IMG/VR virus record: IMGVR_UViG_3300032116_022045
Direction: 5' to 3' (one strand)
Length of the DNA: 64,000 bases
Source of the DNA: a virus
Taxonomy: Duplodnaviria > Caudoviricetes
This document shows, piece by piece, positions 17,848 through 62,550 of the stretch. Numbering within the stretch: position 1 is the first letter of the stretch; every line of letters starts with the position of its first letter. The notes beneath the pieces are model-generated. The model had not been told where the DNA came from. It did no database searches and saw nothing but the letters and a program-made list of their open reading frames with translations. Position numbers and translations under genes: made by a program.

Positions 17848-20800
17848 TTATTCATCTAACATTTTATCAATTTCATTTATTATCTGATTGATATCGTTAT
17901 TTATCTTGACATTTTTATCAATAATTTTAATATTATCCATTTTTTTATTTACGTCCAGACCATCAACAGATTCAATAAGGTCAACAAACCTATTTTTATA
18001 TTTATTGGTTCTATTAACTAATTTATTAGTCAATAATTTTTTTTCCTCTGTTATTAATTTTAACCCTTCTGTTAATGTTTCACTAGCCTCACCACCTGCT
18101 GGCGCTTCTGGTGCAGCAGCTTCACCACCTTCTGGTGTCTCACCACCTGTCTCACCACCTAATTCTGGTGTTTCGCCACCTTCTGGCGTTTCTGGTGTTG
18201 TACCACCTAATCCACCACCTAGACCTCCACCGCCTCCGCCACCAAATGATGGTGTTGCAGTTTCAGTGCTAGCAGCAGCTTCACCACCGCCTTTTAAAGC
18301 AGCTTCATAATCACCATATATTTTATCAACATCATCAAACATACCAGTATGCTTAATAACATTAGCTGTATTAGCTATTTCACCAGATGCGGCTTTTTCC
18401 ATTCTTTGTTCTAATAAATCTTTTTTAATTTCATCATTAGACCAACCTAAAATTTCTCTATGCGCCCTTGTCCAAGACATAGTACCAAAACCATTACCAA
18501 TATCTGAAACAGCGTCTTTAAGTAATGTTATTTTTTGTTGTAGATGTTCAATTTTAAGCATTTCAGCTTGTGTTGATGGATTGTTTAATGTTAATGAAAA
18601 ATTATCCAAATCATCTTCAAAACCTAATAAATATAAATGTATAATAGCAATCTTATTAAGTTCTTGTAACATTGATTGTTGTACTCTATTTACAGTTCTT
18701 GAAAAACGTATATCTTGTAATGCTAAATTTTTACCTTCACCAGATGTTTCATCAAAACCTAAAAATGGTTTAGGTATTCTTAACGCAGTAAATAAATTAT
18801 TTCTAAGGTATTCTATATCTGCTATTTGGTCCAAATTAGACGCACCTGGTAAAGTATCTATAGGATTTGGTGCATCTTCTGAACGAACTGGAATAAAGAA
18901 ATCTTGGTCGTTTGATAATTGATTAAATCTTAAATCCATTTGACCAGTTTGAGAATCAATTATTGGTGTTCTTTTAAATCTATCAGCAATTTCATTAACA
19001 TAAGCTGGTACATCAGCATCATCAATATTACCAACATAAATTTTATAAACTCTTCTTTCTGGTGCTCTAGTCACACGATATACTAACATTGAATCTTCAG
19101 CTAAAATAAGCTGTTTCCATATACGTCTAGCCTTTTCTAAAATAGATGTTCCGTAAGGTAATCTTCTATCATCACCTAATAATCTAAAGTGAGCCATTTG
19201 CCATGAATTAAATTCAACATCACGACCTCTCCAATAAAATTTAACTTTGTCTGAATTTGGAACATTATTATTAACACTATGACTTCCAGAAATCATATCA
19301 AATAATCCGCTTTCTCTTCTCTCCATTTCATAATTAGGCATTTGTTTAGCGCCAATTATACCATGTTTATCATTAACATTAAGAAAAACGAAATTATCAC
19401 CATATTTACAATTTGACAAAAACACACCAGAAGTTCTTGAATATGAACTATTTGAATCAAACCCACAGACTGGAAAATTGTGTCTATCATGTTCACCATT
19501 TGGCCCGACAGCTTCTAAACAATAAACATCAGCTGTTTCATTTAATTTAATAACAGAAATTACTTTATGATTAATAACTTTAGTTTTTGTTTTACCCTCA
19601 AAAATAGCTTTGCATTTTAAATATTCTTTATCTAAAATTATTTCTGGTTTAATACTAAAAACAAATTCAAAATAATTTTTATTTGTTTTTCTAAAAATTA
19701 ATTTATTTAAAGTTGTCGTGTTAATTGATTTAGTTATATCTTTTCTAAGTGTGTAGGTCTCTTTTAATAAATTGATAAATTCTTGGTCTGTTTTTAATAA
19801 TTTAGCTAATTTATTAATACCTATATAATTTTGGTTATTTATAATAATATTAGAAATATAATTTAAACACGCATGACTAATTTCAATAGTCATACCTTTT
19901 TTAGTTTTTTTAATAAAATCTTTGTTTGACCAATTAACTAACATTTTATTTGAGCGTATTTCATTATGTTCTGTGTGTAAATCACTATTATTATACAACT
20001 CAAAAAATTTTGGGTAAACACCAGACATTTCTTCAGATAAACGTTTTTTTCTCTTATCTGACCTTAAATATTTATCAATACCTTCTAATCTTTTCTTTAT
20101 AACTTCTGGTTTTTTACGATACTCGTTTAAATTTTTAGATAATTTTTCATGCAAATTAGAATGTTCATTAAAACTCATTCTTTTTAAATTATTTGGGTTA
20201 TTATCTCTTTTTTTAAAATTAATATGGTGTGTTAACCATTTTTCACCGCTAATTTTTTCTTTTTCAGAATCAATTAGACAATTTTTAGCGATTATTCTAT
20301 GAGTATATTCATATTTATCACTACTAGGGTTATAAATTTTTTCATAACCATTTAATTTACCATAGTTTTCTACACTAGTTTTTGTGTAAAACGGCATTAA
20401 AGACTGACCTTCAGTTAATTCATCAGCTCGTTTAAAAGAACCGTCTCTAAGCATATATTCATGGTCTGGTGTTGTATCAATATAAGTACCATCATCTAAT
20501 GTTACCCTATATAATTCACTATTTCGTCTGGTTAAATCACACCAAACTATTTTACTTGGAACAATAGCCTTAGTAACATCTTGAATAGCATATGACCAAA
20601 CTTCTTCACCATTTTTAACTCTATTAGATAATTCTTTAATTGTTATTTCTGTACCATCTAATAATGGGATAATACTATTTTCTCTAATAGGTGTATTTCT
20701 TGTCCACATAGGTAATGATGTATGTATATCTAATCTATTAAAAAATAAATCTTGTAATATTGTTTTAACACGATTACTTTCAGAATAAACATTTAATACT

Positions 20801-21153
20801 TTTCCTTTATCATTAACTGTTGTTGCTTCTTCCATAATAATATCAAGAGCAGCAGCAATGATTGGATAAAATTCCATAGCTTCAAAATCAGCATAAGAAC
20901 CTATACGAGTTGTTTCATAATTAATTGATTGTTGATAAAGTCCGTTTTCGACTTTTTTCCACATTTGAGACAAATATTTATTTTGTTGTGCTTGTAATTT
21001 CGCCAACTCATATTCTCTCTTATCTGTGGTTTTTAATAATTCTTTACCTATATTAAATCTTTGTGGTTGATTATATACATTCTTTAATTTAGCAGAATCT
21101 GGGCCAATTACTTGACCTAATCTTTGAAATATTGTTAATTTTTTATCAGACAT
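17848..21153 (-). CDS. gp20: portal protein (T4 gp20-like) with an HNH-containing intein
   Basis: Exteins WTRNT|CKYGDNF; LILAEDSMLVYRVTRAPERRVYKIYVGN; DTLPGASNLDQIADIEYL; ALRIPKPFL. Confidence 0.93.
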   Translation of the reverse strand: MSDKKLTIFQRLGQVIGPDSAKLKNVYNQPQRFNIGKELLKTTDKREYELAKLQAQQNKYLSQMWKKVENGLYQQSINYETTRIGSYADFEAMEFYPIIAAALDIIMEEATTVNDKGKVLNVYSESNRVKTILQDLFFNRLDIHTSLPMWTRNTPIRENSIIPLLDGTEITIKELSNRVKNGEEVWSYAIQDVTKAIVPSKIVWCDLTRRNSELYRVTLDDGTYIDTTPDHEYMLRDGSFKRADELTEGQSLMPFYTKTSVENYGKLNGYEKIYNPSSDKYEYTHRIIAKNCLIDSEKEKISGEKWLTHHINFKKRDNNPNNLKRMSFNEHSNLHEKLSKNLNEYRKKPEVIKKRLEGIDKYLRSDKRKKRLSEEMSGVYPKFFELYNNSDLHTEHNEIRSNKMLVNWSNKDFIKKTKKGMTIEISHACLNYISNIIINNQNYIGINKLAKLLKTDQEFINLLKETYTLRKDITKSINTTTLNKLIFRKTNKNYFEFVFSIKPEIILDKEYLKCKAIFEGKTKTKVINHKVISVIKLNETADVYCLEAVGPNGEHDRHNFPVCGFDSNSSYSRTSGVFLSNCKYGDNFVFLNVNDKHGIIGAKQMPNYEMERRESGLFDMISGSHSVNNNVPNSDKVKFYWRGRDVEFNSWQMAHFRLLGDDRRLPYGTSILEKARRIWKQLILAEDSMLVYRVTRAPERRVYKIYVGNIDDADVPAYVNEIADRFKRTPIIDSQTGQMDLRFNQLSNDQDFFIPVRSEDAPNPIDTLPGASNLDQIADIEYLRNNLFTALRIPKPFLGFDETSGEGKNLALQDIRFSRTVNRVQQSMLQELNKIAIIHLYLLGFEDDLDNFSLTLNNPSTQAEMLKIEHLQQKITLLKDAVSDIGNGFGTMSWTRAHREILGWSNDEIKKDLLEQRMEKAASGEIANTANVIKHTGMFDDVDKIYGDYEAALKGGGEAAASTETATPSFGGGGGGGLGGGLGGTTPETPEGGETPELGGETGGETPEGGEAAAPEAPAGGEASETLTEGLKLITEEKKLLTNKLVNRTNKYKNRFVDLIESVDGLDVNKKMDNIKIIDKNVKINNDINQIINEIDKMLDE
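19411..20691 (-). mobile_element. 427-aa intein with HNH endonuclease; atypical (Pro1, block-F Cys, Ser-Asn end)
   Basis: PIRENSIIPLLDG (block A), TTPDHEY (block B), HHINFKKRDNNPNNL (HNH), VYCLEAV (block F), GVFLSN/C (block G). Confidence 0.88.
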
Positions 21154-34197: not shown

Positions 34198-34353
34198 TCA
34201 TTGCATTTTCTTAAGTTCTTCTTTAATTCTTCGAATTTCGGTAATTACATCATCACCAAGTTCAATTTTAGACATCAGAATTAAGTCCATAATTTGTGAT
34301 TCGTAAAGTGCAATTAGCTCTTGTTGTGATTGTATTACTTTTTCGTTATTCAT
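34198..34353 (-). CDS. small hypothetical protein (51 aa)
   Basis: MNNEKVIQSQQELIALYESQIMDL...KKMQ; directly follows the promoter at 34387-34418. Confidence 0.55.
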   Translation of the reverse strand: MNNEKVIQSQQELIALYESQIMDLILMSKIELGDDVITEIRRIKEELKKMQ

Positions 34354-34386: not shown

Positions 34387-34418
34387 CAAATATACTATTA
34401 ATAATCGAATTAAACAAA
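34387..34418 (-). promoter_or_regulatory. Bacteroidota-type sigma70 promoter
   Basis: TTTG-N20-TATATTTG. Confidence 0.75.
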
Positions 34419-34429
34419 AAAATGTTTTA

Positions 34430-34525
34430 GTTGCGTGATATTTTTATCCTAAAATATTGTGGTAATTAAATATACATCAATTAGTTATAAAGATGTATTG
34501 CGTATATTCTGTTGTTATAGGTAAT
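34430..34525 (+). repeat. conserved non-palindromic leader site L1 (attI-like)
   Basis: TTAGTTATAAAGATGTATTGCGTATAttCTGTT-GTTATAGGTAAT; near-identical copies at 39907 and 41023. Confidence 0.65.
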
Positions 34526-34535
34526 AAAACAAAAA

Positions 34536-34766
34536 TTACGAGTTTTTTATTTCTTCAAACCCATAGTAATGTAAGAACATCAGTGTATGTTCGTCATCAT
34601 CTAGCATCCTTTCTGTTATTGTTATTATTTTACCGTTATGTTCGTTTTTCAAATTACCAATAAACTTCTGCCCTACTTGTAAATAATTAGGTGTAATTTT
34701 TGTTTTACTACCTATAACAAATAATTGGCGTAATGCCTTTAGTTTTTCAATCAAATATTTTCTCAT
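34536..34766 (-). CDS. cassette A ORF (hypothetical); starts inside the palindrome loop
   Basis: Reads through the core as VIGS (GTT ATA GGT AGT). Confidence 0.6.
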   Translation of the reverse strand: MRKYLIEKLKALRQLFVIGSKTKITPNYLQVGQKFIGNLKNEHNGKIITITERMLDDDEHTLMFLHYYGFEEIKNS

Positions 34767-34837
34767 AATATCAACTTTTGTTTTTCAAATTAACTTTTCG
34801 TTTGGCACTACGCCAATTATCAACCGTTATACACAAT
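34707..34837 (+). repeat. attC-like palindrome C1
   Basis: ACCTATAAC-AA-ATAATTGGCGTAATGCC ... GGCACTACGCCAATTAT-CAACC-GTTATACACAAT. Confidence 0.8.
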
Positions 34838-34881
34838 ACTACATTAGTGTTTAAATTATAGTTCCGTGTAAAACTTTAAAA

Positions 34882-35223
34882 TTAATTTTGTGAAATAAAA
34901 TCTTGACACAATAGATAATCTTGGTTATACTCAGATAAGTTATATTTAATATTAATATTATTTTCACAAAATCTTATAAAATTATGAATTATAGGTGTTC
35001 CTAATAACTGATTATGTTTTTTTGTGTAAAAAACAATTATAGGATATAAAACACCCTCAACATCATCGTAAAATTTTTGATTATATTTATTTAACACCAA
35101 AAAACAATTTAATAAATTTTTCCCTAACACAAGATTATTAGTCAGTTCCAGTTGTTTTTCTGGGGTTAAATTGTCATTAATGAAACCTCTAGTTTTCCAC
35201 AATTCAATATGTGTGTAATTCAT
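34882..35223 (-). CDS. cassette B ORF (hypothetical)
   Basis: 113 aa between GTTATACACA and TGTGTATAAC. Confidence 0.65.
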   Translation of the reverse strand: MNYTHIELWKTRGFINDNLTPEKQLELTNNLVLGKNLLNCFLVLNKYNQKFYDDVEGVLYPIIVFYTKKHNQLLGTPIIHNFIRFCENNINIKYNLSEYNQDYLLCQDFISQN

Positions 35224-35283
35224 AATTTTATATTTTAAAGTTAATATTTGTTTTTCAATTAAAGTTTCTACTTAATAAACCGT

Positions 35284-35388
35284 ACTGTGTATAACAAGGT
35301 GTATATGTAATTCTTTTTACAAAGATACGAATAAATTTTCAGATTTCCAAATAAAAAACTACATATACACCCAACCGTTAGCGGCAAT
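35284..35388 (+). repeat. attC-like palindrome C2, with a promoter in its loop
   Basis: TGTGTATAAC-AA-GGTGTATATGT ... ACATATACACC-CAACC-GTTAGCGGCAAT. Confidence 0.8.
35320..35351 (-). promoter_or_regulatory. Bacteroidota-type sigma70 promoter within the C2 loop
   Basis: TTTG-N20-TATCTTTG pointing at the cassette B ORF. Confidence 0.7.
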
Positions 35389-35589
35389 TTAATACCGTAT
35401 TTTATCATTAACTATACTAACAATCCAAAAGAACCCAACCAAGCTGAAAGCTGTAAACAGGTAACACATAAACATATTCATTTCGCTTTCAAACATTAAA
35501 ACAAATCCAACTAATTGAAGGATAAAAACTGCCGCTAACATCGCATATACGGCAATAGCGGCTACTGTGCTAATTTTAAACTTTTTCAT
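35389..35589 (-). CDS. cassette C ORF, small two-TM membrane protein; starts in the palindrome loop
   Basis: Two hydrophobic stretches in 66 aa. Confidence 0.6.
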   Translation of the reverse strand: MKKFKISTVAAIAVYAMLAAVFILQLVGFVLMFESEMNMFMCYLFTAFSLVGFFWIVSIVNDKIRY

Positions 35590-35669
35590 TATATTTTAGT
35601 TTTTGTTGTTAATTAAACTTCTGTGTTTCAAATCCGCTACTGCGTATATGCCCAACCGTTATGAATAAT
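35528..35669 (+). repeat. attC-like palindrome C3
   Basis: TGCCGCTAAC-ATC-GCATATACGGCAATAGCGG ... CCGCTACTGCGTATATGC-CCAACC-GTTATGAATAAT. Confidence 0.8.
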
Positions 35670-35674
35670 AAATT

Positions 35675-35887
35675 TTAAACCCATTCAATCGGTATCAACT
35701 TATCACATTTACTATCTTTCACTTCTTTACAATCATTGTAGTATTCTACGGTAGGAACTACTTTAACAGAACCATCTTCAAATGTGATAATCACTGCTTT
35801 GTCCCAATTAGGATGTTTTTCTTTTTTTAAGATTTTCATATATTTATGTTTAAAATTTACATACTTATAACAAATGATAAACAACAT
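35675..35887 (-). CDS. cassette D ORF (hypothetical; start 35887 or 35839)
   Basis: ORF between palindromes C3 and C4. Confidence 0.55.
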   Translation of the reverse strand: MLFIICYKYVNFKHKYMKILKKEKHPNWDKAVIITFEDGSVKVVPTVEYYNDCKEVKDSKCDKLIPIEWV

Positions 35888-35923
35888 TAAAACGATTGTT
35901 TATCATCGGACGTTATATGAAAT
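35863..35923 (+). repeat. attC-like palindrome C4
   Basis: ACTTATAAC-AA-ATGATAAACAA-loop-TTGTTTATCAT-CGGAC-GTTATATGAAAT. Confidence 0.8.
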
Positions 35924-35924
35924 G

Positions 35925-36320
35925 TTATTTTTGTTCTGAGTTAATTAAAATTAAATACCCAATAAAATAACCCATTTTATCAGAAGATATGACATCATCA
36001 ATTTTATTTTCCAATTCATTATCTTTCATGTAAAATGTTTCAGTGTCCTTGAAATAAAATACAGATAATGATACATTACCATTCATATCCAATAAACATA
36101 TTTCAAATATTTTACATGAAAGATTTTCACCCACTTCTTCATTCCCAATTCGTCCATATTTTATTTCATAATCATAGATAATCTTACCTTCTGATATTCT
36201 ATTATTAATCACACCAGATAAAACACCATTAGTATCTTCTGATAATGATTTTGAGTAATTAGTTAATAATTTACCAATATCAAATTTGGTATCCAAGTTT
36301 TTAATTTTAAATTTATTCAT
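35925..36320 (-). CDS. cassette E ORF (hypothetical)
   Basis: 131 aa between GTTATATGAA and TTCATATAAC. Confidence 0.65.
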   Translation of the reverse strand: MNKFKIKNLDTKFDIGKLLTNYSKSLSEDTNGVLSGVINNRISEGKIIYDYEIKYGRIGNEEVGENLSCKIFEICLLDMNGNVSLSVFYFKDTETFYMKDNELENKIDDVISSDKMGYFIGYLILINSEQK

Positions 36321-36356
36321 AATTTATATTTTTAATAGGTAAAACAAAAATAACAC

Positions 36357-36419
36357 ATTCATATAACAGATGATAAACAACATTAAAACGATTGTTTATC
36401 ATCGGACGTTATTCATAAC
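36357..36419 (+). repeat. attC-like palindrome C5 (near-identical to C4)
   Basis: TTCATATAAC-AG-ATGATAAACAACATTAAAACGATTGTTTATCAT-CGGAC-GTTAT. Confidence 0.8.
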
Positions 36420-36435
36420 TTTCTATTTTTTATAT

Positions 36436-36867
36436 TTAAGAATATAATAATACACAATATGTTACGTTTAAGTATAATTTAATAATAAGTGGTTCTGTAG
36501 TCCCCCAATCCAAAACACCAAAATCAACTTTATTGATTGTACCTTTAATTAACCATTCTTCAACTTTATCACCGATAGGAGATAATATAGAAAGATTAAC
36601 TTCTATTGTTTGGTCATCTAATTTTCTTAATTCTCTTAGTCCCGTCATCAATGATTGACTCGTTGATGGTACAATTGGGTCGTACATTGAGAAAACCATT
36701 TCATCCCATTTATGTCCGCCATTTGTTATAATAAAGGTTGGTCTAGTTGTACTTTTTACAACAAATTTTGGAATATTAAATGGTGGTTTAAATTCAACCA
36801 TAAATCTACTTACAGATTTAGGTTCAAATGGCACAAATACTTCTTGATTGGTCTCGTCTTTACTCAT
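36436..36867 (-). CDS. diverged tail-tube-like protein (gp19-like)
   Basis: FEPKSVSRF...WDEMVFSMYDPIVPS...LSPIGDKVEEWLIKG...FGVLDW...YCVL matches the tail tube pattern. Confidence 0.6.
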   Translation of the reverse strand: MSKDETNQEVFVPFEPKSVSRFMVEFKPPFNIPKFVVKSTTRPTFIITNGGHKWDEMVFSMYDPIVPSTSQSLMTGLRELRKLDDQTIEVNLSILSPIGDKVEEWLIKGTINKVDFGVLDWGTTEPLIIKLYLNVTYCVLLYS

Positions 36868-37138
36868 AACTTTCTATTGTTTTGTAACTATCAAAACATA
36901 AATGTACTGTATCTTCATTTATACTTAATATCGGGTAACAATGATGTAAAATACCTGATTCACATATTGTTTTGTATTCAATATTTTCTATGTAACTTTC
37001 CTTTGATACACCAGACTTACTACGTTTTTGCCATTTATAAAAGAAGATTACATCTTGTTCTTCGAATAGTCGTATAATAAATTTCATTTCATCATTATAT
37101 CTTCCTTCAAACCATTTTTCATTAATTTTAACTTTCAT
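36860..37138 (-). CDS. hypothetical protein ending IESYE
   Basis: 8-nt overlap coupling with its neighbour. Confidence 0.65.
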   Translation of the reverse strand: MKVKINEKWFEGRYNDEMKFIIRLFEEQDVIFFYKWQKRSKSGVSKESYIENIEYKTICESGILHHCYPILSINEDTVHLCFDSYKTIESYE

Positions 37139-37709
37139 AAACTTCTATTTTTTCGTTGTTGTATGTTATTGTAATTAGTCGGGTTGGCACATTCCATTCA
37201 TTATTCATTCGGTATTCAATATCCGATGGTAATAAGATTTCACTATCATCAGTATCATTTAATTTTTCTCTACATAAATTCATTCTTTCCTTCAAACTCA
37301 ACTCTCTTTCCTCAATCTTTAATCCCCATTTTTTTGAGAACTCTGAATCGGTTTTGCATTTGTTGATGAACTCTTCTTGTGAATACGGTTTCCATCTACT
37401 TTCAATTTCAGGATTCTTCTTAATCCAATAATTATCTACTTCATCGTTATGTTTTAGATAGTTCTTATACGCTTCGTCAATAGTCATATCGGCTAACAAA
37501 GATTTTATTTTTCTAGCGCACTCAGTTACTCTACCATCTACATCAAGTACGGTTGAAGATTCTAACGACCAAAGAAAATCATGTACCGTGGCATATGTTA
37601 TCTCTCTTTTAATTTGTTTTAACCCATCATATAAATGCTCTGCTGGGTCGATATAACTAGATGTACCTAATATAGTAATTACTTCTTTAATTATTTCTTC
37701 TTTACTCAT
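37128..37709 (-). CDS. paralog family member 1 (WGLKIEERELS...ITITYNNEKIE)
   Basis: C-terminal domain shared with 37702-38100 and 38364-38735. Confidence 0.75.
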   Translation of the reverse strand: MSKEEIIKEVITILGTSSYIDPAEHLYDGLKQIKREITYATVHDFLWSLESSTVLDVDGRVTECARKIKSLLADMTIDEAYKNYLKHNDEVDNYWIKKNPEIESRWKPYSQEEFINKCKTDSEFSKKWGLKIEERELSLKERMNLCREKLNDTDDSEILLPSDIEYRMNNEWNVPTRLITITYNNEKIEVYES

Positions 37710-38100
37710 AAATTTCTATCGTTTCATTATTGTATGTTATTGTGATTAGTCGGGTAGGGGTCGGCTCGTAATAATCATTTTCAAAATCAGGAAGATTATT
37801 TTCATTGTATTCCATACCAGTTTCAAAATTATTCTTAAACCAAATCTTATATCTTTCTTCCGAACTCAACTCTCTTTCCTCAATCCGCAATCCCCATATT
37901 TGAGAGAACTCTGGGTCGGCTTTGCACTTTGATAAAAAACCATTTTTATTGTATTGTCTTGCACCTATAGACTTCTCACCAGTTTTCATGTCCATCACTG
38001 GAACAGGTTCGAGAAATTTAGGATTGCTATCAAACATGGTTTGTTGAAGATACTTACGCCAAGACTCATCAATCATCTGATTCATTTTTTCGTTACTCAT
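37702..38100 (-). CDS. paralog family member 2
   Basis: WGLRIEERELS...ITITYNNETIEIYE. Confidence 0.75.
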   Translation of the reverse strand: MSNEKMNQMIDESWRKYLQQTMFDSNPKFLEPVPVMDMKTGEKSIGARQYNKNGFLSKCKADPEFSQIWGLRIEERELSSEERYKIWFKNNFETGMEYNENNLPDFENDYYEPTPTRLITITYNNETIEIYE

Positions 38101-38371
38101 AACTTTCTATTTTTTGATTTTCCCATTCAGTACCACTATAACCGATTGTTTCCATTTTATCAGTATCTACAAAAACACCCCAACCCCATTCAGATTGATA
38201 AAAAACCTCATTATCTTTGAGTTTTTCGGTCATTAACCAATTTTCATCTAAATCTTCAATTAAACACGTACCATTTTTTGGTACATATTTTATTTCTCGT
38301 TTATTAGTTAAAATAAATTTAACTTCCTCCCCATAACCTTTTAACTTTATTGTATCTGGTAAGTTACTCAT
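38093..38371 (-). CDS. hypothetical protein ending KIESYE
   Basis: Overlap-coupled ORF. Confidence 0.65.
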   Translation of the reverse strand: MSNLPDTIKLKGYGEEVKFILTNKREIKYVPKNGTCLIEDLDENWLMTEKLKDNEVFYQSEWGWGVFVDTDKMETIGYSGTEWENQKIESYE

Positions 38372-38735
38372 AACTTTCTATTTTTTCGTTGTTGTACGTT
38401 ATTGTGATTAGTTTTGCTGGGATGTTAGATGCATCGAGAACTGATTTTTCTTCTATAATTAACTTATGGTTTCTATCATAAAAATCTCTCTTATTATCAC
38501 TTTGACTAACCAGAATTTTTGTTCTTTCTTCTAAACTCAACTCTCGTTCCTCAATCTTTAATCCCCACTTTTCAGAGAACTCAGGGTCTGTTTTAGACCT
38601 ATAAATGAATGTTCCTTTAGTTTCTTTTGCCATCCATAAAAGACCTGTACCTTCTAAATGTTTACCCATTTCATATGATTTTTCATAATTCTCATACGCC
38701 TCATCAATAATCTGATTCATTTTTTTGTTATTCAT
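38364..38735 (-). CDS. paralog family member 3
   Basis: WGLKIEERELS...ITITYNNEKIESYE. Confidence 0.75.
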   Translation of the reverse strand: MNNKKMNQIIDEAYENYEKSYEMGKHLEGTGLLWMAKETKGTFIYRSKTDPEFSEKWGLKIEERELSLEERTKILVSQSDNKRDFYDRNHKLIIEEKSVLDASNIPAKLITITYNNEKIESYE

Positions 38736-39027
38736 ATGTAATTTTAGTTACTTGAAATACTTGTTCTAAACCATCGTCTTCACATATATATCCGTTGTAC
38801 TCGCCTGCATCCCAAACGTTAAATTTAAAATATAACCCATCTGATTTTCTTTGTACAATGTAATCCCATGAAGGGCCATCTGAATATTCTGAAGTGTTTA
38901 TCTTGGTTATGTGAGTGTAAGTGTCTCCATCAATCTCATAACTACTGCCTTGAAAGTAAATACCATCCCACAACTCTAGTTGTTGCTCGGAGTTCATTTC
39001 AATTAAAATTCTATCTTTTTTATTCAT
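38728..39027 (-). CDS. hypothetical protein
   Basis: Overlap-coupled ORF. Confidence 0.65.
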   Translation of the reverse strand: MNKKDRILIEMNSEQQLELWDGIYFQGSSYEIDGDTYTHITKINTSEYSDGPSWDYIVQRKSDGLYFKFNVWDAGEYNGYICEDDGLEQVFQVTKITYE

Positions 39028-39349
39028 CTTTTTTATTAAATAATTCTTTAAAATTAACTGTTTCTTCTAAAATAATAATATCAATATTCATTTCTTCTTT
39101 AGCTTTTTCAATCATGTTGTTTAATATTCCTCTAGTCCAAAGGCTACACCCATAACTGTTCTTATGGCATTTATAAACAGAATTAGAATACCCTTTAAAA
39201 TAATAGAAATCTTCATCGTCTTCAACAGATACGATTCCACTATTCATTCTCCATACATCTGAAGAAATGTAACCACCATACCAAGTGGCAAAAACTTTAT
39301 ATAAATCTTCGGATATTTTTAATACCACCCATTTATCAGGACTATGCAT
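39020..39349 (-). CDS. phage hypothetical protein
   Basis: PDKWVVLKI...YKVFATWYGGY...WRMNSGI pattern recalled from other myophage small proteins. Confidence 0.65.
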   Translation of the reverse strand: MHSPDKWVVLKISEDLYKVFATWYGGYISSDVWRMNSGIVSVEDDEDFYYFKGYSNSVYKCHKNSYGCSLWTRGILNNMIEKAKEEMNIDIIILEETVNFKELFNKKDE

Positions 39350-39352
39350 AAT

Positions 39353-39595
39353 TTATTTTTGTAAGGAAATTGAGACTTTGTACTTCAAACGAGAAGAGTT
39401 TATATCTGTTTCAATTAACCCAAACACGATACTTAAATCTTCTGGATTAATCATTGTTGGGGTAACCATAAATTCTTCTCCTATGTTATCAAGAGAATTT
39501 TTAATATTTTCCACTATTGATATTGGTATCAATGTTTCAATTTCCATTTCTTCAAAGGTTTCTGGGTTAATGTGTTTTGATTTGTAATTTTTCAT
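39353..39595 (-). CDS. hypothetical protein
   Basis: 80-aa ORF in operon. Confidence 0.6.
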   Translation of the reverse strand: MKNYKSKHINPETFEEMEIETLIPISIVENIKNSLDNIGEEFMVTPTMINPEDLSIVFGLIETDINSSRLKYKVSISLQK

Positions 39596-39607
39596 ATTTG
39601 TATAAAT

Positions 39608-39763
39608 TTATTTTTGTTTTGAATATATTTCATATGTTTTATTAACAGCATCTTGAACACTTTCCATCCAAGTTTTCAATATTGGCCTAAAATTGAAAAT
39701 GGACATTTCTGCGTCCCAAATAACTTTGGGGATTTCGATTTTAATAATTTTTCGGTTTTTCAT
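39608..39763 (-). CDS. small hypothetical protein (51 aa)
   Basis: MKNRKIIKIEIPKVIWDAEM...YSKQK; fills an operon gap. Confidence 0.5.
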   Translation of the reverse strand: MKNRKIIKIEIPKVIWDAEMSIFNFRPILKTWMESVQDAVNKTYEIYSKQK

Positions 39764-39820
39764 AATTATTTTATTAGTTTTTGCATAATTCAGTTATTTT
39801 ATTTTCATTTTCCATAGTAT

Positions 39821-39906
39821 TTAAGTTTTGTGTTTCAATTTAAAGTAAACGGAATAACCCATCTTTCACAATCTTGTGTCAATCTATTGATGTGTTTATA
39901 ATTATT
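39821..39906. repeat. 86-bp direct repeat of 40196-40281 (3' end of the receiver-like gene)
   Basis: Identical except one T/G mismatch. Confidence 0.9.
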
Positions 39907-39954
39907 CATTTAGTTATAAAGATGTATTGCGTATAGCCTGTTGTTATAAAACAT
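39907..39954 (+). repeat. leader site L2 (attI-like, truncated)
   Basis: 45 nt (39906-39950) identical to 41023-41067. Confidence 0.65.
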
Positions 39955-40138
39955 TTTTCGATACACCAAGTTCCTTTGATTTTACCAAAAATTCATTTTC
40001 ATCTTCCAAAGAAATAGTTGAAAATAAATGATGTTCCACCAAATATAATGGTGCGTTTGATGTAACTAAATCATTTAATTTAGCTTTATCCCAGAATTTT
40101 TCAACTCTTTCTTCTTGTGCTTTTGTTAATTTTTCCAT
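39944..40138 (-). CDS. cassette G ORF (hypothetical); stop codon inside the core
   Basis: Flanked by GTTATAAAAC and GTTTTATAAC. Confidence 0.6.
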   Translation of the reverse strand: MEKLTKAQEERVEKFWDKAKLNDLVTSNAPLYLVEHHLFSTISLEDENEFLVKSKELGVSKNVL

Positions 40139-40143
40139 ATAAA

Positions 40144-40195
40144 ACGTTTTATAACAAGGTATATGTGAAATACCTCATAAGGTTTCTACTAATTT
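40144..40195 (+). repeat. half attC-like site C6 (left arm identical to C8)
   Basis: TTTTATAACAAGGTATATGTGAAATACCTCATAAGGTTTCTACTAAT also occurs at 41588. Confidence 0.75.
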
Positions 40196-40209
40196 TTAAG
40201 TTTTGTGTT

Positions 40210-40617
40210 TCAATTTAAAGTAAACGGAATAACCCATCTTTCACAATCTTGTGGCAATCTATTGATGTGTTTATAATTATTAATATACCCCATCATATTA
40301 GCTGAACCAATAGCGTTGGCAGAATGAACCATAACCCTTGTTACTGGAGACCCATCCATCCATTTTTCAACTAACCATTTTGTGCAGTCCATACCAGTTT
40401 TTTCGGTTATGTTATTGTAATCAATGGTGTAGTTATTAACCACATTATTATGCCACTCAATCATAGCAGAATCACCTAAATCATGGTCCAAAGATATTAA
40501 TTCTATATTTTCAAGACCTATTTCAGTTATTTTTGAAACAAATTCATCGTAGTTTCTAACCACAATCCAATCAGAACCCAATGGAGTTCTAACATCATCT
40601 AAATATATTTTTGTCAT
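40210..40617 (-). CDS. cyclic-phosphate-processing receiver-like domain protein
   Basis: IYLDDVRTP; ISLDHDLG; TGMDCTKWL; VHSANAIG. Confidence 0.7.
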   Translation of the reverse strand: MTKIYLDDVRTPLGSDWIVVRNYDEFVSKITEIGLENIELISLDHDLGDSAMIEWHNNVVNNYTIDYNNITEKTGMDCTKWLVEKWMDGSPVTRVMVHSANAIGSANMMGYINNYKHINRLPQDCERWVIPFTLN

Positions 40618-40910
40618 TTTGTTTTTAATGTTTCAATTTCTACTAATAATTCTTTAACATCAAATTTATCCATTTTTTGAAAGTTTTTATATTTTGTTTT
40701 AATTGTTGAATTAAAAACAGAACCATTACTTTCAGCCAATTCAAAACTATTGTAATCAATAGAATCAACATTATGATATTTGTATTGACCACCATTTTTA
40801 AAAATTATTGTTAAATCAAAATTATTTCTGTCGTACACTGATGCACAAATGTTTGATGAATCATAAATAGCTTTTATAATTCCCTTTTGTTCTTCTTTTT
40901 TTAATACCAT
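40614..40910 (-). CDS. KTSC domain protein
   Basis: SSNICASVYD...LTIIFKNGGQYKYHNV...AESNGSVFN. Confidence 0.8.
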   Translation of the reverse strand: MVLKKEEQKGIIKAIYDSSNICASVYDRNNFDLTIIFKNGGQYKYHNVDSIDYNSFELAESNGSVFNSTIKTKYKNFQKMDKFDVKELLVEIETLKTK

Positions 40911-40926
40911 TTTTATTTATTTATTA

Positions 40927-40958
40927 CAAATATACTAATAATATTTTATTTACACAAA
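40927..40958 (-). promoter_or_regulatory. Bacteroidota-type sigma70 promoter
   Basis: TTTG-N20-TATATTTG. Confidence 0.75.
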
Positions 40959-40976
40959 AAAATATTTAAATAATAG

Positions 40977-41071
40977 TTGCGTAATATTTTTATCATAAAA
41001 CCGTGATATAATTACCTATATATCATTTAGTTATAAAGATGTATTGCGTATAGCCTGTTGTTATAAACAAT
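40977..41071 (+). repeat. leader site L3 (attI-like)
   Basis: GTTGCGTAATATTTTTATC...TTAGTTATAAAGATGTATTGCGTATAGCCTGTT-GTTATAAACAAT; parallels 34430-34525. Confidence 0.65.
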
Positions 41072-41079
41072 AAAAAACC

Positions 41080-41478
41080 TTAAAGTGGTGGTTCTAAATT
41101 ATCTTTTATCTTATCATAAGAATCTTTAATCGCATCTGAAAGTATTTGTTCAATAGGTTTTTTACTATTTATAACAACGGATATATGAAATAAAAAATTA
41201 ATAGATTCTACAAACTTTCTAATTTCTTCCTCCGATTTACATTCTCGTTGAACAACACAAAATTCACCTCTTACCACTTTACAAGTTTGGGTTTCTATGT
41301 TGTAATAAAGTATTGGTAATCTACAAGAGTTTCCACATATTTCAGTATCTTCTTCACCTAAAACCCAAACTTGTTTTCCAGAGAATACATCAACTATCTC
41401 TTTGAATCCTAAATCTGTTAAATTTTGTGTTGTTATCATCGTTCTAATTATTAATTTTTTACATTCATATATCCGCAA
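41080..41478 (-). CDS. cassette H ORF, mostly encoded in the loop of palindrome C7 (start 41478 or a downstream ATG)
   Basis: Reads through the arm and core as FHISVVINS. Confidence 0.6.
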   Translation of the reverse strand: MRIYECKKLIIRTMITTQNLTDLGFKEIVDVFSGKQVWVLGEEDTEICGNSCRLPILYYNIETQTCKVVRGEFCVVQRECKSEEEIRKFVESINFLFHISVVINSKKPIEQILSDAIKDSYDKIKDNLEPPL

Positions 41479-41492
41479 CCGTTATAAAACAT
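41164..41492 (+). repeat. attC-like palindrome C7 with an approx. 250-nt loop
   Basis: TTTATAAC-AAC-GGATATATGAAATAAAAAATTAAT ... ATTAATTTTTTACATTCATATATCC-GCAACC-GTTATAAAACAT. Confidence 0.75.
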
Positions 41493-41496
41493 AAAA

Positions 41497-41577
41497 TTAT
41501 AATAACATCAGTAAACAAATTAATGTACATACCGTTATTATCATAAGTGCGATTTTTTCAGTCTTATCTATTTTCAT
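41497..41577 (-). CDS. cassette I micro-ORF, 26-aa hydrophobic peptide
   Basis: MKIDKTEKIALMIITVCTLICLLMLL; fills the cassette body between C7 and C8. Confidence 0.35.
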   Translation of the reverse strand: MKIDKTEKIALMIITVCTLICLLMLL

Positions 41578-41583
41578 AATTTT

Positions 41584-41687
41584 ACGATTTTATAACAAGG
41601 TATATGTGAAATACCTCATAAGGTTTCTACTAATTATTTAAGTTTCGCGGTTAGGTACTTCACATATACCCAACCGTTAGTGGCAAT
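41584..41687 (+). repeat. attC-like palindrome C8
   Basis: TTTTATAAC-AA-GGTATATGTGAAATACC ... GGTACTTCACATATACC-CAACC-GTTAGTGGCAAT. Confidence 0.8.
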
Positions 41688-41886
41688 TTTGACGATGTAT
41701 CTCATCACCGATAGCTTGTAATCTTTTGACATCTTCTGCATCCCATAAGTAAATTCGGCAGTTAGTTTCTTTTCCATCTTTAATAATTGGTGCAAATCTA
41801 TCTTTACCCATATCACCGATAGAAAAACTGCCACTAACATCGGTTTTGCAAAAAAGCCGTTTTAGTGCTAATTTTAATCTTTTCAT
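41677..41886 (-). CDS. cassette J ORF; probable start in the C9 loop, stop in the core
   Basis: MKRLKLALKRLFCKTDVSGSF...RQNCH. The ORF-track start at 42021 lies in the neighbouring cassette. Confidence 0.55.
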   Translation of the reverse strand: MKRLKLALKRLFCKTDVSGSFSIGDMGKDRFAPIIKDGKETNCRIYLWDAEDVKRLQAIGDEIHRQNCH

Positions 41887-41967
41887 TTCTATTGAACTTT
41901 TGTTGTTAATTGAACATTTGTTTTTCAAAATCGGCTTCTTCGCAAAGCCGTAAACGTTAGTGGCAAT
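41827..41967 (+). repeat. attC-like palindrome C9
   Basis: TGCCACTAAC-ATC-GGTTTTGCAAAAAAGCCGTTTT ... AAAATCGGCTTCTTCGCAAAGCC-GTAAAC-GTTAGTGGCAAT. Confidence 0.8.
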
Positions 41968-42220
41968 TTTGCTCACCACGCTTATAAACCATCTCTTTGT
42001 TTTCGTCAAAATGTAAGTCATATTCTTTACAAAAAGACCTAACCATTTTTCTAAATTCGTGATATTCCCAAGTTGTTAAGTCGTGCTTATCAAACAACAA
42101 CCTCATTTTATACAATAATCCATTAGGTCTTCTTGTAAATTCATCTTGATAAAAACTGCCACTAACAGCACCTAAATCGCTATTGGCGGTTTCTTCTGTA
42201 TTCAAATTTTCGTGTTCCAT
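41957..42220 (-). CDS. cassette K ORF; probable start in the C10 loop, stop in the core
   Basis: MEHENLNTEETANSDLGAVSGSF...EQNCH. Confidence 0.6.
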   Translation of the reverse strand: MEHENLNTEETANSDLGAVSGSFYQDEFTRRPNGLLYKMRLLFDKHDLTTWEYHEFRKMVRSFCKEYDLHFDENKEMVYKRGEQNCH

Positions 42221-42296
42221 ATTATGTTTATTTAAAATTGATAATTTAGTGTTCCAAATCGCCAACAGCGTTTAGCTGCGGCACGTTATAAGTAAT
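42155..42296 (+). repeat. attC-like palindrome C10
   Basis: TGCCACTAAC-A-GCACCTAAATCGCTATTGGCGGTTT ... AAATCGCCAACAGCGTTTAGCTGC-GGCAC-GTTATAAGTAAT. Confidence 0.8.
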
Positions 42297-42298
42297 TT

Positions 42299-42550
42299 TT
42301 AGTTACTCCTTATCATATTATCTTCTTCAAGAAAAAACATTTCCAATGCCGTGTCATATCCTTTACCCTCTTCCACTATCATAATATACTTACCTTCGCC
42401 ATAAGCTACAGTAGCATTTTTATCAACAATGAATTTAATCTTCTTACCTTCATACTTATTATGATAATGTAAGAAAAAACTACTTATAACATCAGATATA
42501 CCCAATTCGGGGTTATGTGTTTCATTTGAGTTTTGTTCTTTATCAACCAT
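42299..42550 (-). CDS. cassette L ORF
   Basis: MVDKEQNSNETHNPELGISDVISS reads through the half site at 42479. Confidence 0.6.
   Translation of the reverse strand: MVDKEQNSNETHNPELGISDVISSFFLHYHNKYEGKKIKFIVDKNATVAYGEGKYIMIVEEGKGYDTALEMFFLEEDNMIRSN
42479..42510 (+). repeat. half attC-like site C11 (right arm not found)
   Basis: ACTACTTATAAC is complementary to GTTATAAGTA at 42285. Confidence 0.55.
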
Positions 42551-42580: not shown

Positions 42581-42763
42581 TTACGTTTTTATTTTTTTTA
42601 TTTTTGGTATGTCGTGAAATATGGTTTCTTTTCGTATATTATCGGTTATTATCAATGAATTATAATGTAAACTTATATGAACATTATTATATGTAACTGA
42701 CCTACATTCAAAATCAACTGTTATAGTTTCATATGACTTGTTAAAAATAGTTTTATCTTCCAT
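42581..42763 (-). CDS. small hypothetical protein
   Basis: 60 aa; TATTTTTG element just upstream. Confidence 0.55.
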   Translation of the reverse strand: MEDKTIFNKSYETITVDFECRSVTYNNVHISLHYNSLIITDNIRKETIFHDIPKIKKIKT

Positions 42764-62334: not shown

Positions 62335-62369
62335 TTATAAATATACAATATTTTTTAAATAACAACACC

Positions 62370-62500
62370 ACCCTAATATTTAAACCCAAAAAATTCTGGA
62401 AATTTTTTTTTAAAAAAAGGGACCCTAATATTTAAATCCAAAAAATTCTGGAAATTTTTTTTTAAAAAAAGGGACCCTAATATTTAAACCCAAAAAATTC
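62370..62500. repeat. 52-bp tandem repeat, about 2.5 copies
   Basis: ACCCTAATATTTAAAYCCAAAAAATTC starts at 62370, 62422 and 62474. Confidence 0.9.
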
Positions 62501-62550
62501 CCCAGAAAAATTTTGCGAATCCTATTGTACCCCACTTTTAACCTGCACCA

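What the first reader, a model, noticed from the sequence alone, without database searches (positions are those of the whole stretch)
34430..41071. Three conserved non-palindromic leader sites heading the arrays (attI-like)
Seen: each array begins on the + strand with TTAGTTATAAAGATGTATTGCGTATA(GC/TT)CTGTT-GTTAT (core at 34514, 39943 and 41060). L2 and L3 share 45 identical nt. L1 and L3 extend about 50 nt further left with a second TTGCGT, and each abuts a leftward host promoter. Unlike the palindromes they are sequence-conserved and have no partner arm. Known: attI is a double-stranded, sequence-specific site with direct repeats where new cassettes enter. Inference: these are the entry points, multiplied within one genome.
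Basis: partly seen in the sequence, partly recalled or inferred. Interest (0 to 1): 0.72.

Follow-up and report, generated by a model that had tools for sequence, protein, structure and literature searches.

The report
Orphan attI-like heads of phage arrays
A giant lake phage carries three copies of a conserved, unfolded DNA site at the head of three rows of small swappable genes; related phages keep the site but carry different genes starting exactly at its last four bases, so it is most likely the docking site where gene cassettes are exchanged, like attI of bacterial integrons but with no recombinase gene beside it.

Summary
The 26-mer occurs three times (0 expected). L2 and L3 share 45 nt. 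L1 and L3 share about 100-165 nt that hold a second TTGCGT box and a full Bacteroidota-type promoter pointing away from the array. No leader has a partner arm, whereas all nine neighbouring hairpin sites do.

Each leader ends in CTGTT|GTTA. The bases right of GTTA pair with the first cassette's own left box, as in integron cassettes (10 such pairs in 8 kb against 0.055 expected).

The same leader heads different cassettes in relatives (L154, L155, L162, L164). It also does so in three co-existing strain variants whose neighbouring ClpB protein is 100% identical. Homology always stops at the core.

The two TTGCGT boxes keep fixed positions (-83/-84 and -16) while the promoter distance drifts.

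In hundreds of related phage contigs such arrays end at a 267-aa Xer-like recombinase gene beside a weakly similar site. No recombinase was found in this window or in its four nearest large relatives.

Verdict: an attI-like array-head site, multi-copy, promoter-coupled and without an adjacent recombinase. Enzyme binding and insertion polarity are not shown.

This scan had already found integron-like phage arrays on other DNA. The orphan, multi-copy leader module is the new part.

The parts
34387..34418 (-). Leftward Bacteroidota-type promoter of leader module L1 (TTTG-N20-TAtaTTTG). It drives the 51-aa gene at 34198-34353.
   Evidence: Motif scan: one of 11 full motifs in the window. It aligns with the L3 module.
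34428..34448 (+). L1 distal TTGCGT box, with TTGCGT at -83 from the core G.
34477..34517 (+). L1 proximal box plus GTTA core (core 34514-34517; TTGCGT at -16).
   Evidence: The bases from 34514 on pair with 34693-34718, 26 nt.
34514..36419 (-). Array A: five cassettes starting at 34514, 34826, 35377, 35658 and 35912. Hairpin sites lie at 34693-34829, 35282-35380, 35526-35661, 35865-35915 and 36358-36411. The tail is GTTATTCATAAC. All ORFs are on the minus strand.
   Evidence: The tail is conserved in L153.
39815..39905 (.). Copy A of a 91-98-nt direct repeat (3' end of the cREC-like gene) that abuts L2 on the left. Copy B lies at 40190-40287.
   Evidence: D5, 95% identical. Strains L251 and L254 have a single copy and no L2 unit.
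39906..39946 (+). L2: proximal box plus core only (core 39943-39946). It has no distal box and no promoter.
39943..40204 (-). Array B: one cassette (64-aa ORF at 39944-40138) with its own left box at 40141-40155, plus only the left arm and part of the loop of a hairpin site.
   Evidence: (D16).
40927..40958 (-). Leftward promoter of leader module L3. It drives the KTSC-domain gene at 40614-40910.
   Evidence: It is absent from the same position in 79 of 80 ClpB relatives.
40974..40994 (+). L3 distal TTGCGT box.
41023..41063 (+). L3 proximal box plus GTTA core (core 41060-41063).
   Evidence: 41057-41080 pairs with 41155-41178 (I2). Logan contigs carry the cassette 41060-41484 with other DNA to its left (table 8).
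41060..42515 (-). Array C: cassettes starting at 41060, 41481, 41676, 41956 and 42285. Hairpin sites lie at 41155-41484, 41588-41679, 41824-41959 and 42152-42288. A short terminal site lies at 42475-42515.
   Evidence: The whole array is an insertion relative to 79 of 80 relatives. It is replaced in strain variants.

Best explanation
**What the leader is.** Each leader is the array-head recombination site of an integron-like cassette system of large Bacteroidota phages. It is a double-stranded, unfolded site with these parts:
- a proximal box (TATTGCGTAtAGCC) seven to eight bases from a GTTA crossover core;
- a second TTGCGT box 67-68 nt upstream;
- in the full module, an outward-facing host-type promoter.

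**How it most likely works.** A tyrosine recombinase of the small Xer-like family, which sits at the end of such arrays in related phages, would pair this site with the folded minus-strand hairpin site of a cassette and exchange strands within GTTA. Cassettes would thus be added, removed or replaced at the head of the array. The promoter restarts transcription of the conserved genes that the inserted array cut off from their old promoter.

**Source of the enzyme.** No recombinase gene lies beside the leaders, so the enzyme would act in trans. It could come from elsewhere in the 293-kb genome, from a co-infecting phage or from the host.

**Shown:** site anatomy, exact junctions, and variation that starts at the core.
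**Inferred:** enzyme identity, binding to the boxes, and direction of insertion.
For: 1. **Junction logic.** The bases right of each leader core pair with the first cassette's own left box, exactly as between cassettes inside the arrays. There are 10 such GTTA/TAAC pairs, all within 34.5-42.5 kb, against 0.055 expected. About 9 are found in 1.6 Mb of relatives' loci.
2. **Same leader, different first cassettes.** Eight or more leader copies head different first cassettes, and homology ends right after CTGTTGTTA:
   - window L1, L2 and L3;
   - L154, with a 7-cassette array;
   - L155, with one N6/N4 methyltransferase cassette;
   - L162, L164 and L165.
3. **Close pairs diverge at the core.** L162 and L164 have left flanks 93% identical. 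L154 and L155 have left flanks 91% identical. In both pairs nothing is shared after the core.
4. **Strain variants.** Three variants with a 100% identical ClpB protein keep L3 but carry unrelated arrays. Logan contigs of two runs hold the cassette 41060-41484 in another context, with the break at 41060.
5. **Unfolded site.** No partner arm and no significant fold.
6. **Box spacing.** The boxes lie at -83/-84 and -16 in all six full leaders. The promoter offset varies from -124 to -148. The boxes are therefore positioned for the core, not for the promoter. TTGCGTR is not found at other promoters in the window.
7. **Related platforms.** In related contigs the same kind of array starts 45-50 nt from the ATG of a Xer-like recombinase, behind a conserved ...TATATAATA|GTTA site. 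Two of these sites carry TTGCATATA at -16, where the leader has TTGCGTATA. The leaders score in the top 0.5-13% of 871 window GTTA sites on that site's matrix, while hairpin right halves do not.
8. **Array C is an insertion.** Array C with L3 and its promoter is inserted into a conserved gene pair.
Against: - No recombinase was found in the window: 40 ORFs of 150 aa or more have no integrase domain, and tblastn is negative.
- The four nearest large relatives have no PF00589 match over the cut-off.
- The rest of the source genome could not be searched.
- The leader is not found next to any of 80 recombinase loci, nor in five large recombinase-bearing phage records. Its likeness to the recombinase-side site is weak: leaders score -1 to -12, against a median of +19.6 for the true sites.
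- Nine contigs from different samples are 99.8-100% identical over arrays A and B with no indel, so turnover is not fast.
- In the strain variants the whole of array C is replaced. Homologous exchange in the leader and tail could also do this.
- The left junction of L2 is illegitimate, not site-specific.
Confidence: 0.6

Rival explanations
1. The leader is a homology anchor, comparable to the PeSL promoter/stem-loop modules of T4-type phages. In this reading it is a conserved promoter-bearing repeat that lets general homologous recombination swap whole arrays between co-infecting phages, and it is not itself a substrate of a site-specific enzyme.
For: - The phage is T4-like: Gp23 capsid, Gp20 portal and prohead protease.
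- The module carries a strong promoter and is repeated in a hyperplastic region.
- The strain variants replace all of array C between conserved flanks.
- An 842-bp deletion between 20-nt repeats shows that homologous exchange is active nearby (table 5).
- PeSL-mediated shuffling is documented in PMC2839356 and PMC4122927.
Against: - Homologous exchange cannot create the junctions in the first place. Eight different first cassettes are joined to the leader at the same base, and each starts with the complement of its own left box.
- The leader has no stem-loop.
- L2 shows the 45-nt proximal part without the promoter.
Confidence: 0.15
2. The leader is an inert fossil. It would be the right half of an old hairpin site, or simply the fixed array boundary, conserved because it overlaps the upstream region of the promoter. 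All present cassette exchange would then happen between hairpin sites only.
For: - The leader's proximal part resembles hairpin right halves: a TATA-containing box, a short spacer, then GTTA.
- L153 (92% relative) has the distal box fused to a hairpin-type ...CCCAACC|GTTA end, which shows decay or rearrangement of leaders.
- The arrays are identical in nine contigs.
Against: - A dead site would keep one first cassette, but eight different ones follow the same leader family.
- The spacer CCTGTT is conserved and differs from the hairpin spacer CCAACC.
- The proximal box is better conserved than the promoter spacer between strains.
Confidence: 0.12
3. The TTGCGT boxes are operator or activator sites that control the adjacent leftward promoter, and their position at array heads is incidental.
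For: - The distal box lies about 40-65 nt upstream of the promoter's -7 element, a plausible activator position.
- The module always precedes a gene.
Against: - The distance from box to promoter varies by 24 nt, while the distance from box to core is fixed.
- L2 and L165 keep the proximal box without a promoter.
- The box is absent from the other promoters of the window.
- The downstream genes are unrelated in each case.
Confidence: 0.06

Closest known systems
attI of integrons (for example attI1 with its L and R boxes and direct repeats DR1/DR2)
   Same: - Unfolded double-stranded site at the head of a cassette array.
- The crossover lies in a GTT-type core shared with the folded cassette sites.
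- It has extra direct-repeat boxes upstream.
- The sequence right of the core belongs to the first cassette.
   Different: - No integrase gene is adjacent.
- Three copies occur in one genome, and further copies sit in different gene contexts in relatives.
- The coupled promoter points away from the cassettes, and all cassette ORFs point towards the site.
- There is no sequence similarity to known attI sites.
- The presumed enzyme family is a 267-aa Xer-like recombinase, not IntI.
Recombinase-side head site of Xer-like phage cassette arrays
   Same: - Same position, directly left of the first GTTA core.
- Same cassette orientation.
- A TTGYRTATA-type box at -16 in some members, and a GTTA-like box near -29.
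   Different: - That site is only about 45-50 nt long and touches the recombinase start codon.
- Its last bases are ATAATA, not CCTGTT.
- The leader has a second distant box and its own promoter, and it has no recombinase.
PeSL modules (promoter-early stem-loops) of T4-type phages (PMC2839356, PMC4122927)
   Same: - Repeated, promoter-bearing non-coding modules in hyperplastic regions of T4-like genomes.
- They bound swappable small genes.
   Different: - PeSLs act by sequence homology and include a terminator stem-loop.
- The leader is unstructured, and its junctions lie at a fixed base with cassette-specific inverted complements.
CALINs (attC clusters lacking an integrase) in virulent phages, for example Polaribacter phage P12002L (PMC9892861)
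   Same: Cassette arrays with folded sites in lytic phage genomes, without an adjacent integrase.
   Different: - CALINs are defined by attC sites only.
- Here a conserved non-palindromic head site is present and multiplied.
- The cassette genes are reversed.

Membership tests
Integron (IntI + attI + attC cassettes) | Integron integrase (tyrosine recombinase with the IntI-specific insertion) next to attI | tested here: not met
   No PF00589 domain in 40 ORFs of 150 aa or more in the window. tblastn with nine array recombinases is negative. The genes beside the leaders are a 51-aa protein and a KTSC-domain protein.
Integron (IntI + attI + attC cassettes) | Cassettes bounded by imperfect palindromes with inverse core ..AAC and core GTT.., with the cassette start complementary to its own inverse core | tested here: met
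   10 pairs against 0.055 expected. All nine sites have partner arms. The minus strand folds better. There is a fixed A.C (minus-strand G.T) mismatch at position 11 in 9 of 11 window pairs and 230 of 246 related pairs.
Integron (IntI + attI + attC cassettes) | Cassette ORFs read away from attI and are expressed from a promoter at the attI/intI end | tested here: not met
   All cassette ORFs are on the minus strand and read towards the leader. The leader promoter points away from the array. One hairpin loop holds its own full promoter, at 35320-35351.
attI-type site | Non-palindromic double-stranded site, conserved in sequence | tested here: met
attI-type site | The crossover lies at the shared core, so that variable cassettes begin exactly there | tested here: met
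   Homology breakpoints. Contig break at 41060.
attI-type site | Bound and recombined by the cognate integrase, with preferred entry of new cassettes | not testable with these tools
   No enzyme was identified for this genome. Only whole-array replacement and head-side differences were seen.
PeSL (promoter-early stem-loop) module | Strong host-type promoter joined to a terminator stem-loop | tested here: not met
   The promoter is present, but there is no significant hairpin in the leader on either strand.
PeSL (promoter-early stem-loop) module | Exchange by homologous recombination between module copies | tested here: inconclusive
   Whole-array replacement between a conserved leader and tail is compatible with it. 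The base-exact cassette junctions are not explained by it.

The most novel reading that the evidence does not exclude
The leader is a portable 'attI plus promoter' module. It can seed a new cassette array at almost any intergenic site of a lytic jumbo-phage genome and needs no recombinase gene of its own. It would borrow a Xer-like recombinase from the host or from a co-infecting phage. The outward promoter makes the insertion harmless by re-driving the downstream core genes. On this reading, integron-like gene capture in these phages is a distributed, multi-platform system served in trans.
Probability: 0.3. Interest if true: 0.8.

Novelty: new variant of a known kind. Interest (0 to 1): 0.62.

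Why it matters
Integrons are known as one platform per replicon, with the integrase, attI and the promoter together. Here a lytic T4-like giant phage has several array heads with a conserved docking site but no enzyme beside them. Co-existing strains differ by whole arrays that start at that site.

If the site is active, it gives a concrete, testable answer to how hyperplastic regions of large phages gain and swap small accessory genes, probably including host-takeover or anti-defence genes. It would also show that attI-like sites can be multiplied and served in trans.

It offers a defined substrate for testing the insertion-less Xer-like recombinases that accompany such arrays in hundreds of phage contigs. 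That substrate is about 100 bp with two boxes and a 4-base core.

Tried and rejected
**Searches for the leader elsewhere**
- A 17-mer of the leader in IMG/VR gave 13 hits, all chance matches by their flanks.
- Two looser leader patterns in IMG/VR gave 0 hits and 6 chance hits.
- The first metagenome pattern gave 0 hits. The second gave 4 hits, of which 3 were real.
- The pattern in 185,579 species genomes gave one chance hit, in a coding region of a Chitinophaga MAG.
- A leader HMM against 80 ClpB loci and 80 recombinase loci gave nothing significant.
- The pattern with 3 mismatches in five large recombinase-bearing phage records gave none.
- Flavobacterium phage immuto shares only the cREC-like gene and has no arrays in 16 kb.

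**Searches for a recombinase in the source genome**
- The record is not searchable.
- Among the best 120 relatives of an array recombinase, I looked for one on a 293,501-bp contig and found none. With 7,329 family members this is inconclusive.
- A word search with the recombinase in this scan's notes gave hits in other genomes only.

**Other negative or discarded results**
- L251 at first looked like a variant lacking the two head-proximal cassettes. It is a scaffold with 100 N right after the leader core, so I rejected it as evidence of polarity.
- The cargo of the L2 cassette and that of the cassette at 41481 are not homologous. Only their hairpin sites are.
- Rfam: nothing relevant.
- Pfam on ten cassette and flank proteins: nothing.
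- No RNA holder is listed among the sequencing runs, so expression and transcript ends could not be examined.
- No complex prediction was attempted, because no cognate enzyme is known.


Full report
**1. The observation**

No further copy appears at up to three mismatches on either strand, and none in shuffles.

- L2 and L3 are identical over 45 nt, and L1 is 89% identical over that stretch.
- L1 and L3 are 83% identical over 102 nt. They align further left through a promoter.
- The GTTA cores start at 34514, 39943 and 41060.
- A second TTGCGT lies 67 nt left of the first in L1 and L3.
- Full Bacteroidota-type promoters (TTTG, 18-22 nt, TAnnTTTG) read leftwards at 34387-34418 and 40927-40958. 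Only 11 such motifs exist in the 64 kb.

None of the leaders has a complementary arm within 400 nt. Their best scores (5-8) lie inside the shuffle range, while all nine neighbouring hairpin sites score 11-15.5. Single-strand folds of the leaders are not better than shuffles (z -0.3 to -1.7), against -2.1 to -5.8 for the hairpin sites.

**2. Setting**

The window has 27% G+C and comes from an uncultured T4-like jumbo phage.
- It encodes a Gp23 capsid protein, a Gp20 portal with an intein, a prohead protease, a terminase, PhoH, ThyX and a ClpB/ClpC-like ATPase.
- The source contig is 293,501 bp.
- All genes between 33.1 and 42.8 kb are on the minus strand.

**3. The arrays follow integron-cassette logic**

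The palindromic elements have the form [..TAAC]-A(A)-arm-loop-arm'-CCAACC-[GTTA..].

The sequence beginning at each GTTA is complementary to the box ending in TAAC of the next element to the right. That is, each cassette begins with the complement of its own left box.
- A scan for such pairs finds 10 (score 11 or more, within 600 nt), all between 34.5 and 42.5 kb. Simulations give 0.055.
- 1.6 Mb of relatives' loci give about nine in total.
- The three leader cores take part in this logic like any hairpin-site core: 34514 pairs with 34693-34718, 39943 with 40141-40155, and 41060 with 41155-41175.

A fixed A.C mismatch at position 11 of this pairing is found in 9 of 11 window pairs and in 230 of 246 pairs in related loci. 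It reads G.T on the minus strand. The minus strand also folds more stably, so the minus strand is the one selected to fold.

**4. The same element family elsewhere, and its enzyme**

A 16-mer of one hairpin right end found arrays of the same kind in several AT-rich IMG/VR contigs.
- One of them (126.8 kb) has a tyrosine recombinase directly at the array end.
- 201 viral stretches encode relatives of it. The protein family has more than 7,000 members, typically 267 aa and annotated XerD-like.
- In 39 distinct loci the first GTTA core lies about 45-50 nt from the recombinase start, behind a conserved ...TATATAATA|GTTA site.
- All cassette genes point towards the recombinase.
- These recombinase-bearing jumbo phages also have ClpB homologues at 52-67% identity, so they belong to the same broad group as the window phage.

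**5. The leader in relatives**

Relatives were found through the ClpB-like protein and through a metagenome pattern.
- L154 (80% ClpB identity) has the module in front of a seven-cassette array.
- L155 (78%) has it in front of a single N6/N4 DNA methyltransferase cassette.
- L162 and L164 have it in front of two further, different cassettes.
- L165 has the 45-mer (one mismatch) at its contig start.

In the alignments three blocks are conserved: the promoter hexamers, the distal box, and the proximal box with CTGTTGTTA. Similarity always ends just after GTTA.

TTGCGT lies at -83/-84 and -16 from the core G in all six full modules, although the 50 nt between the boxes have diverged. The promoter's -7 element lies anywhere from -124 to -148. 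The boxes are therefore positioned relative to the core, not the promoter.

The genes downstream of the module are unrelated in each context: a 51-aa protein, a KTSC protein, a 71/84-aa protein, and a 69-aa protein followed by an IF3-like gene.

**6. Variation starts at the core**

- L162 and L164 share 875 nt of left flank at 93% identity and nothing after the core. L154 and L155 share 1,000 nt at 91% and nothing after the core.
- Among contigs that encode a 100% identical ClpB protein, three array-C types co-exist:
  - the window type (also in L253 and L257);
  - the L259/L165 type, with two or three other cassettes, which rejoins the window sequence right after the TAAC at 42490;
  - the L252/L254/L255/L256 type, with 136-, 186- (inverted), 149-, 237- and 34-aa genes, which rejoins at 42585.
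- All three types keep L3. Between the window and L252 the leader boxes differ at 3 of 92 positions, while the promoter spacer is much more diverged.
- Logan contigs of two runs carry the cassette 41060-41484 with 375-467 nt of other DNA to its left (table 8).
- In 79 of 80 more distant relatives the KTSC gene follows a small ORF directly, about 330 bp from ClpB. Array C with L3 and its promoter is therefore an insertion.
- At array A, the 92% relative L153 keeps the tail (the last hairpin site and its flank) but has one different cassette and a solo hairpin half instead of L1.
- Nine contigs from other samples are 99.8-100% identical over arrays A and B, so the arrays are stable on that scale.

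**7. L2**

L2 is only the 45-nt proximal part. Together with one cassette and the left half of a hairpin site, it lies between two copies of a 91-98-nt repeat made of the 3' end of the cREC-like gene.

Strains L251 and L254 have one copy of the repeat and no L2 unit. The left junction is not at a core. L2 is thus a polymorphic ectopic copy made by a non-site-specific event.

Its cassette has the same start and the same hairpin type as the first cassette beside the recombinase in L132, but a different cargo.

**8. Likeness to the recombinase-side site**

- L132 and L115 carry TTGCATATA at -16, where the leader has TTGCGTATA.
- Many recombinase-side sites and the window-type and L154/L155 leaders have a GTTA-like box near -29.
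- On a matrix built from the 39 recombinase-side sites, the leaders fall in the top 0.5-13% of 871 window GTTA sites. The hairpin right halves do not. True sites score far higher.

This is a weak but consistent resemblance.

**9. No enzyme found here**

- No integrase domain is found in 40 ORFs of 150 aa or more.
- tblastn gives no match.
- The four nearest large relatives, one of them 100% complete, have no PF00589 match over the cut-off.
- The rest of the source genome could not be searched.

**10. Interpretation**

The base-exact joining of at least eight different first cassettes to one conserved, unfolded site means that the site has recombined repeatedly with cassette sites at GTTA. Each of those cassettes begins with the complement of its own left box.

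That is what defines an attI-like site. I give this reading 0.6.

Homologous exchange through the leader, PeSL-like (PMC2839356), probably also occurs and could explain whole-array replacement. It cannot create the junctions. The inert-fossil and operator readings fit the data less well (see the rival explanations).

The system is not an integron by membership:
- there is no IntI;
- the cassette genes are reversed;
- there is no promoter reading from the head site into the cassettes.

It works like one in site geometry.

**11. Known and new**

- Phage CALINs are published (PMC9892861).
- Earlier reports of this scan describe integron-like arrays with Xer-like recombinases in Bacteroidota phages, and an attI-like half-site beside the recombinase, on other DNA.
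- I found no description of a recombinase-less, promoter-coupled, multi-copy head site.

Noticed in passing
window 34514-42490 and related loci: The pairing between a cassette start and its own left box carries a fixed A.C mismatch at position 11 (start ..AAT, box ACT..). It is found in 9 of 11 window pairs and 230 of 246 pairs in relatives. It reads as G.T on the minus strand and may be a recognition or strand-choice mark.
   Followed up: partly
window 42475-42550: The last unit of array C ends in a very short site (TAAC, 21 nt, GTTA). Strain L259 switches cargo exactly after the TAAC at 42490. As a result, two strains share the first 20 or so codons of the 83-aa ORF (start at 42550) but have unrelated C-terminal bodies. 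Read on the minus strand, the site (..TATATCTGAT|GTTA) looks like an inverted leader-like half-site.
   Followed up: partly
window 36851-37694: Contigs of three sequencing runs skip 842 bp. The deletion removes the 92-aa and 193-aa genes and lies between 20-nt repeats at gene junctions (repeat family D10), so it looks like a homologous deletion variant.
   Followed up: no
window 37128-38735: Three paralogous genes (193, 132 and 123 aa) share a core motif and a C-terminal ..LITITYNNEKIE.YE end, with overlapping stop and start codons. L153 has a 24-codon remnant of this end fused to a solo hairpin half.
   Followed up: no
window 35865-35915 and 36358-36411: The short hairpin type ATGATAAACAAC..loop..GTTTATCAT reaches contig depths of 228-1036, against 10-25 for its neighbours, in lake metagenomes. 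This cassette site is therefore shared by many phages in those samples.
   Followed up: no
window 36408-36419: The tail of array A is GTTATTCATAAC: a core followed at once by an inverse core. It is complementary to the start of the fourth cassette (35658), as if cassettes four and five lay inside one older unit.
   Followed up: no
L252 1278-2230: The array-C variant of other strains contains an inverted hairpin site and a 186-aa gene on the opposite strand, so cassettes can also be inverted.
   Followed up: no
L153 8973-9080: In the 92% relative, the KTSC gene is preceded by an L1-type (not L3-type) promoter and distal box. These are fused to ..CCCAACC|GTTA in place of the proximal box. This is a rearranged or decayed leader.
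   Followed up: partly
window 17848-21153: The T4-type portal gene carries an intein splicing domain (Pfam PF14890, residues 162-548).
   Followed up: no
window 62350-62505: There are three tandem 52-nt repeats with G/C-rich cores in an otherwise AT-rich intergenic stretch.
   Followed up: no
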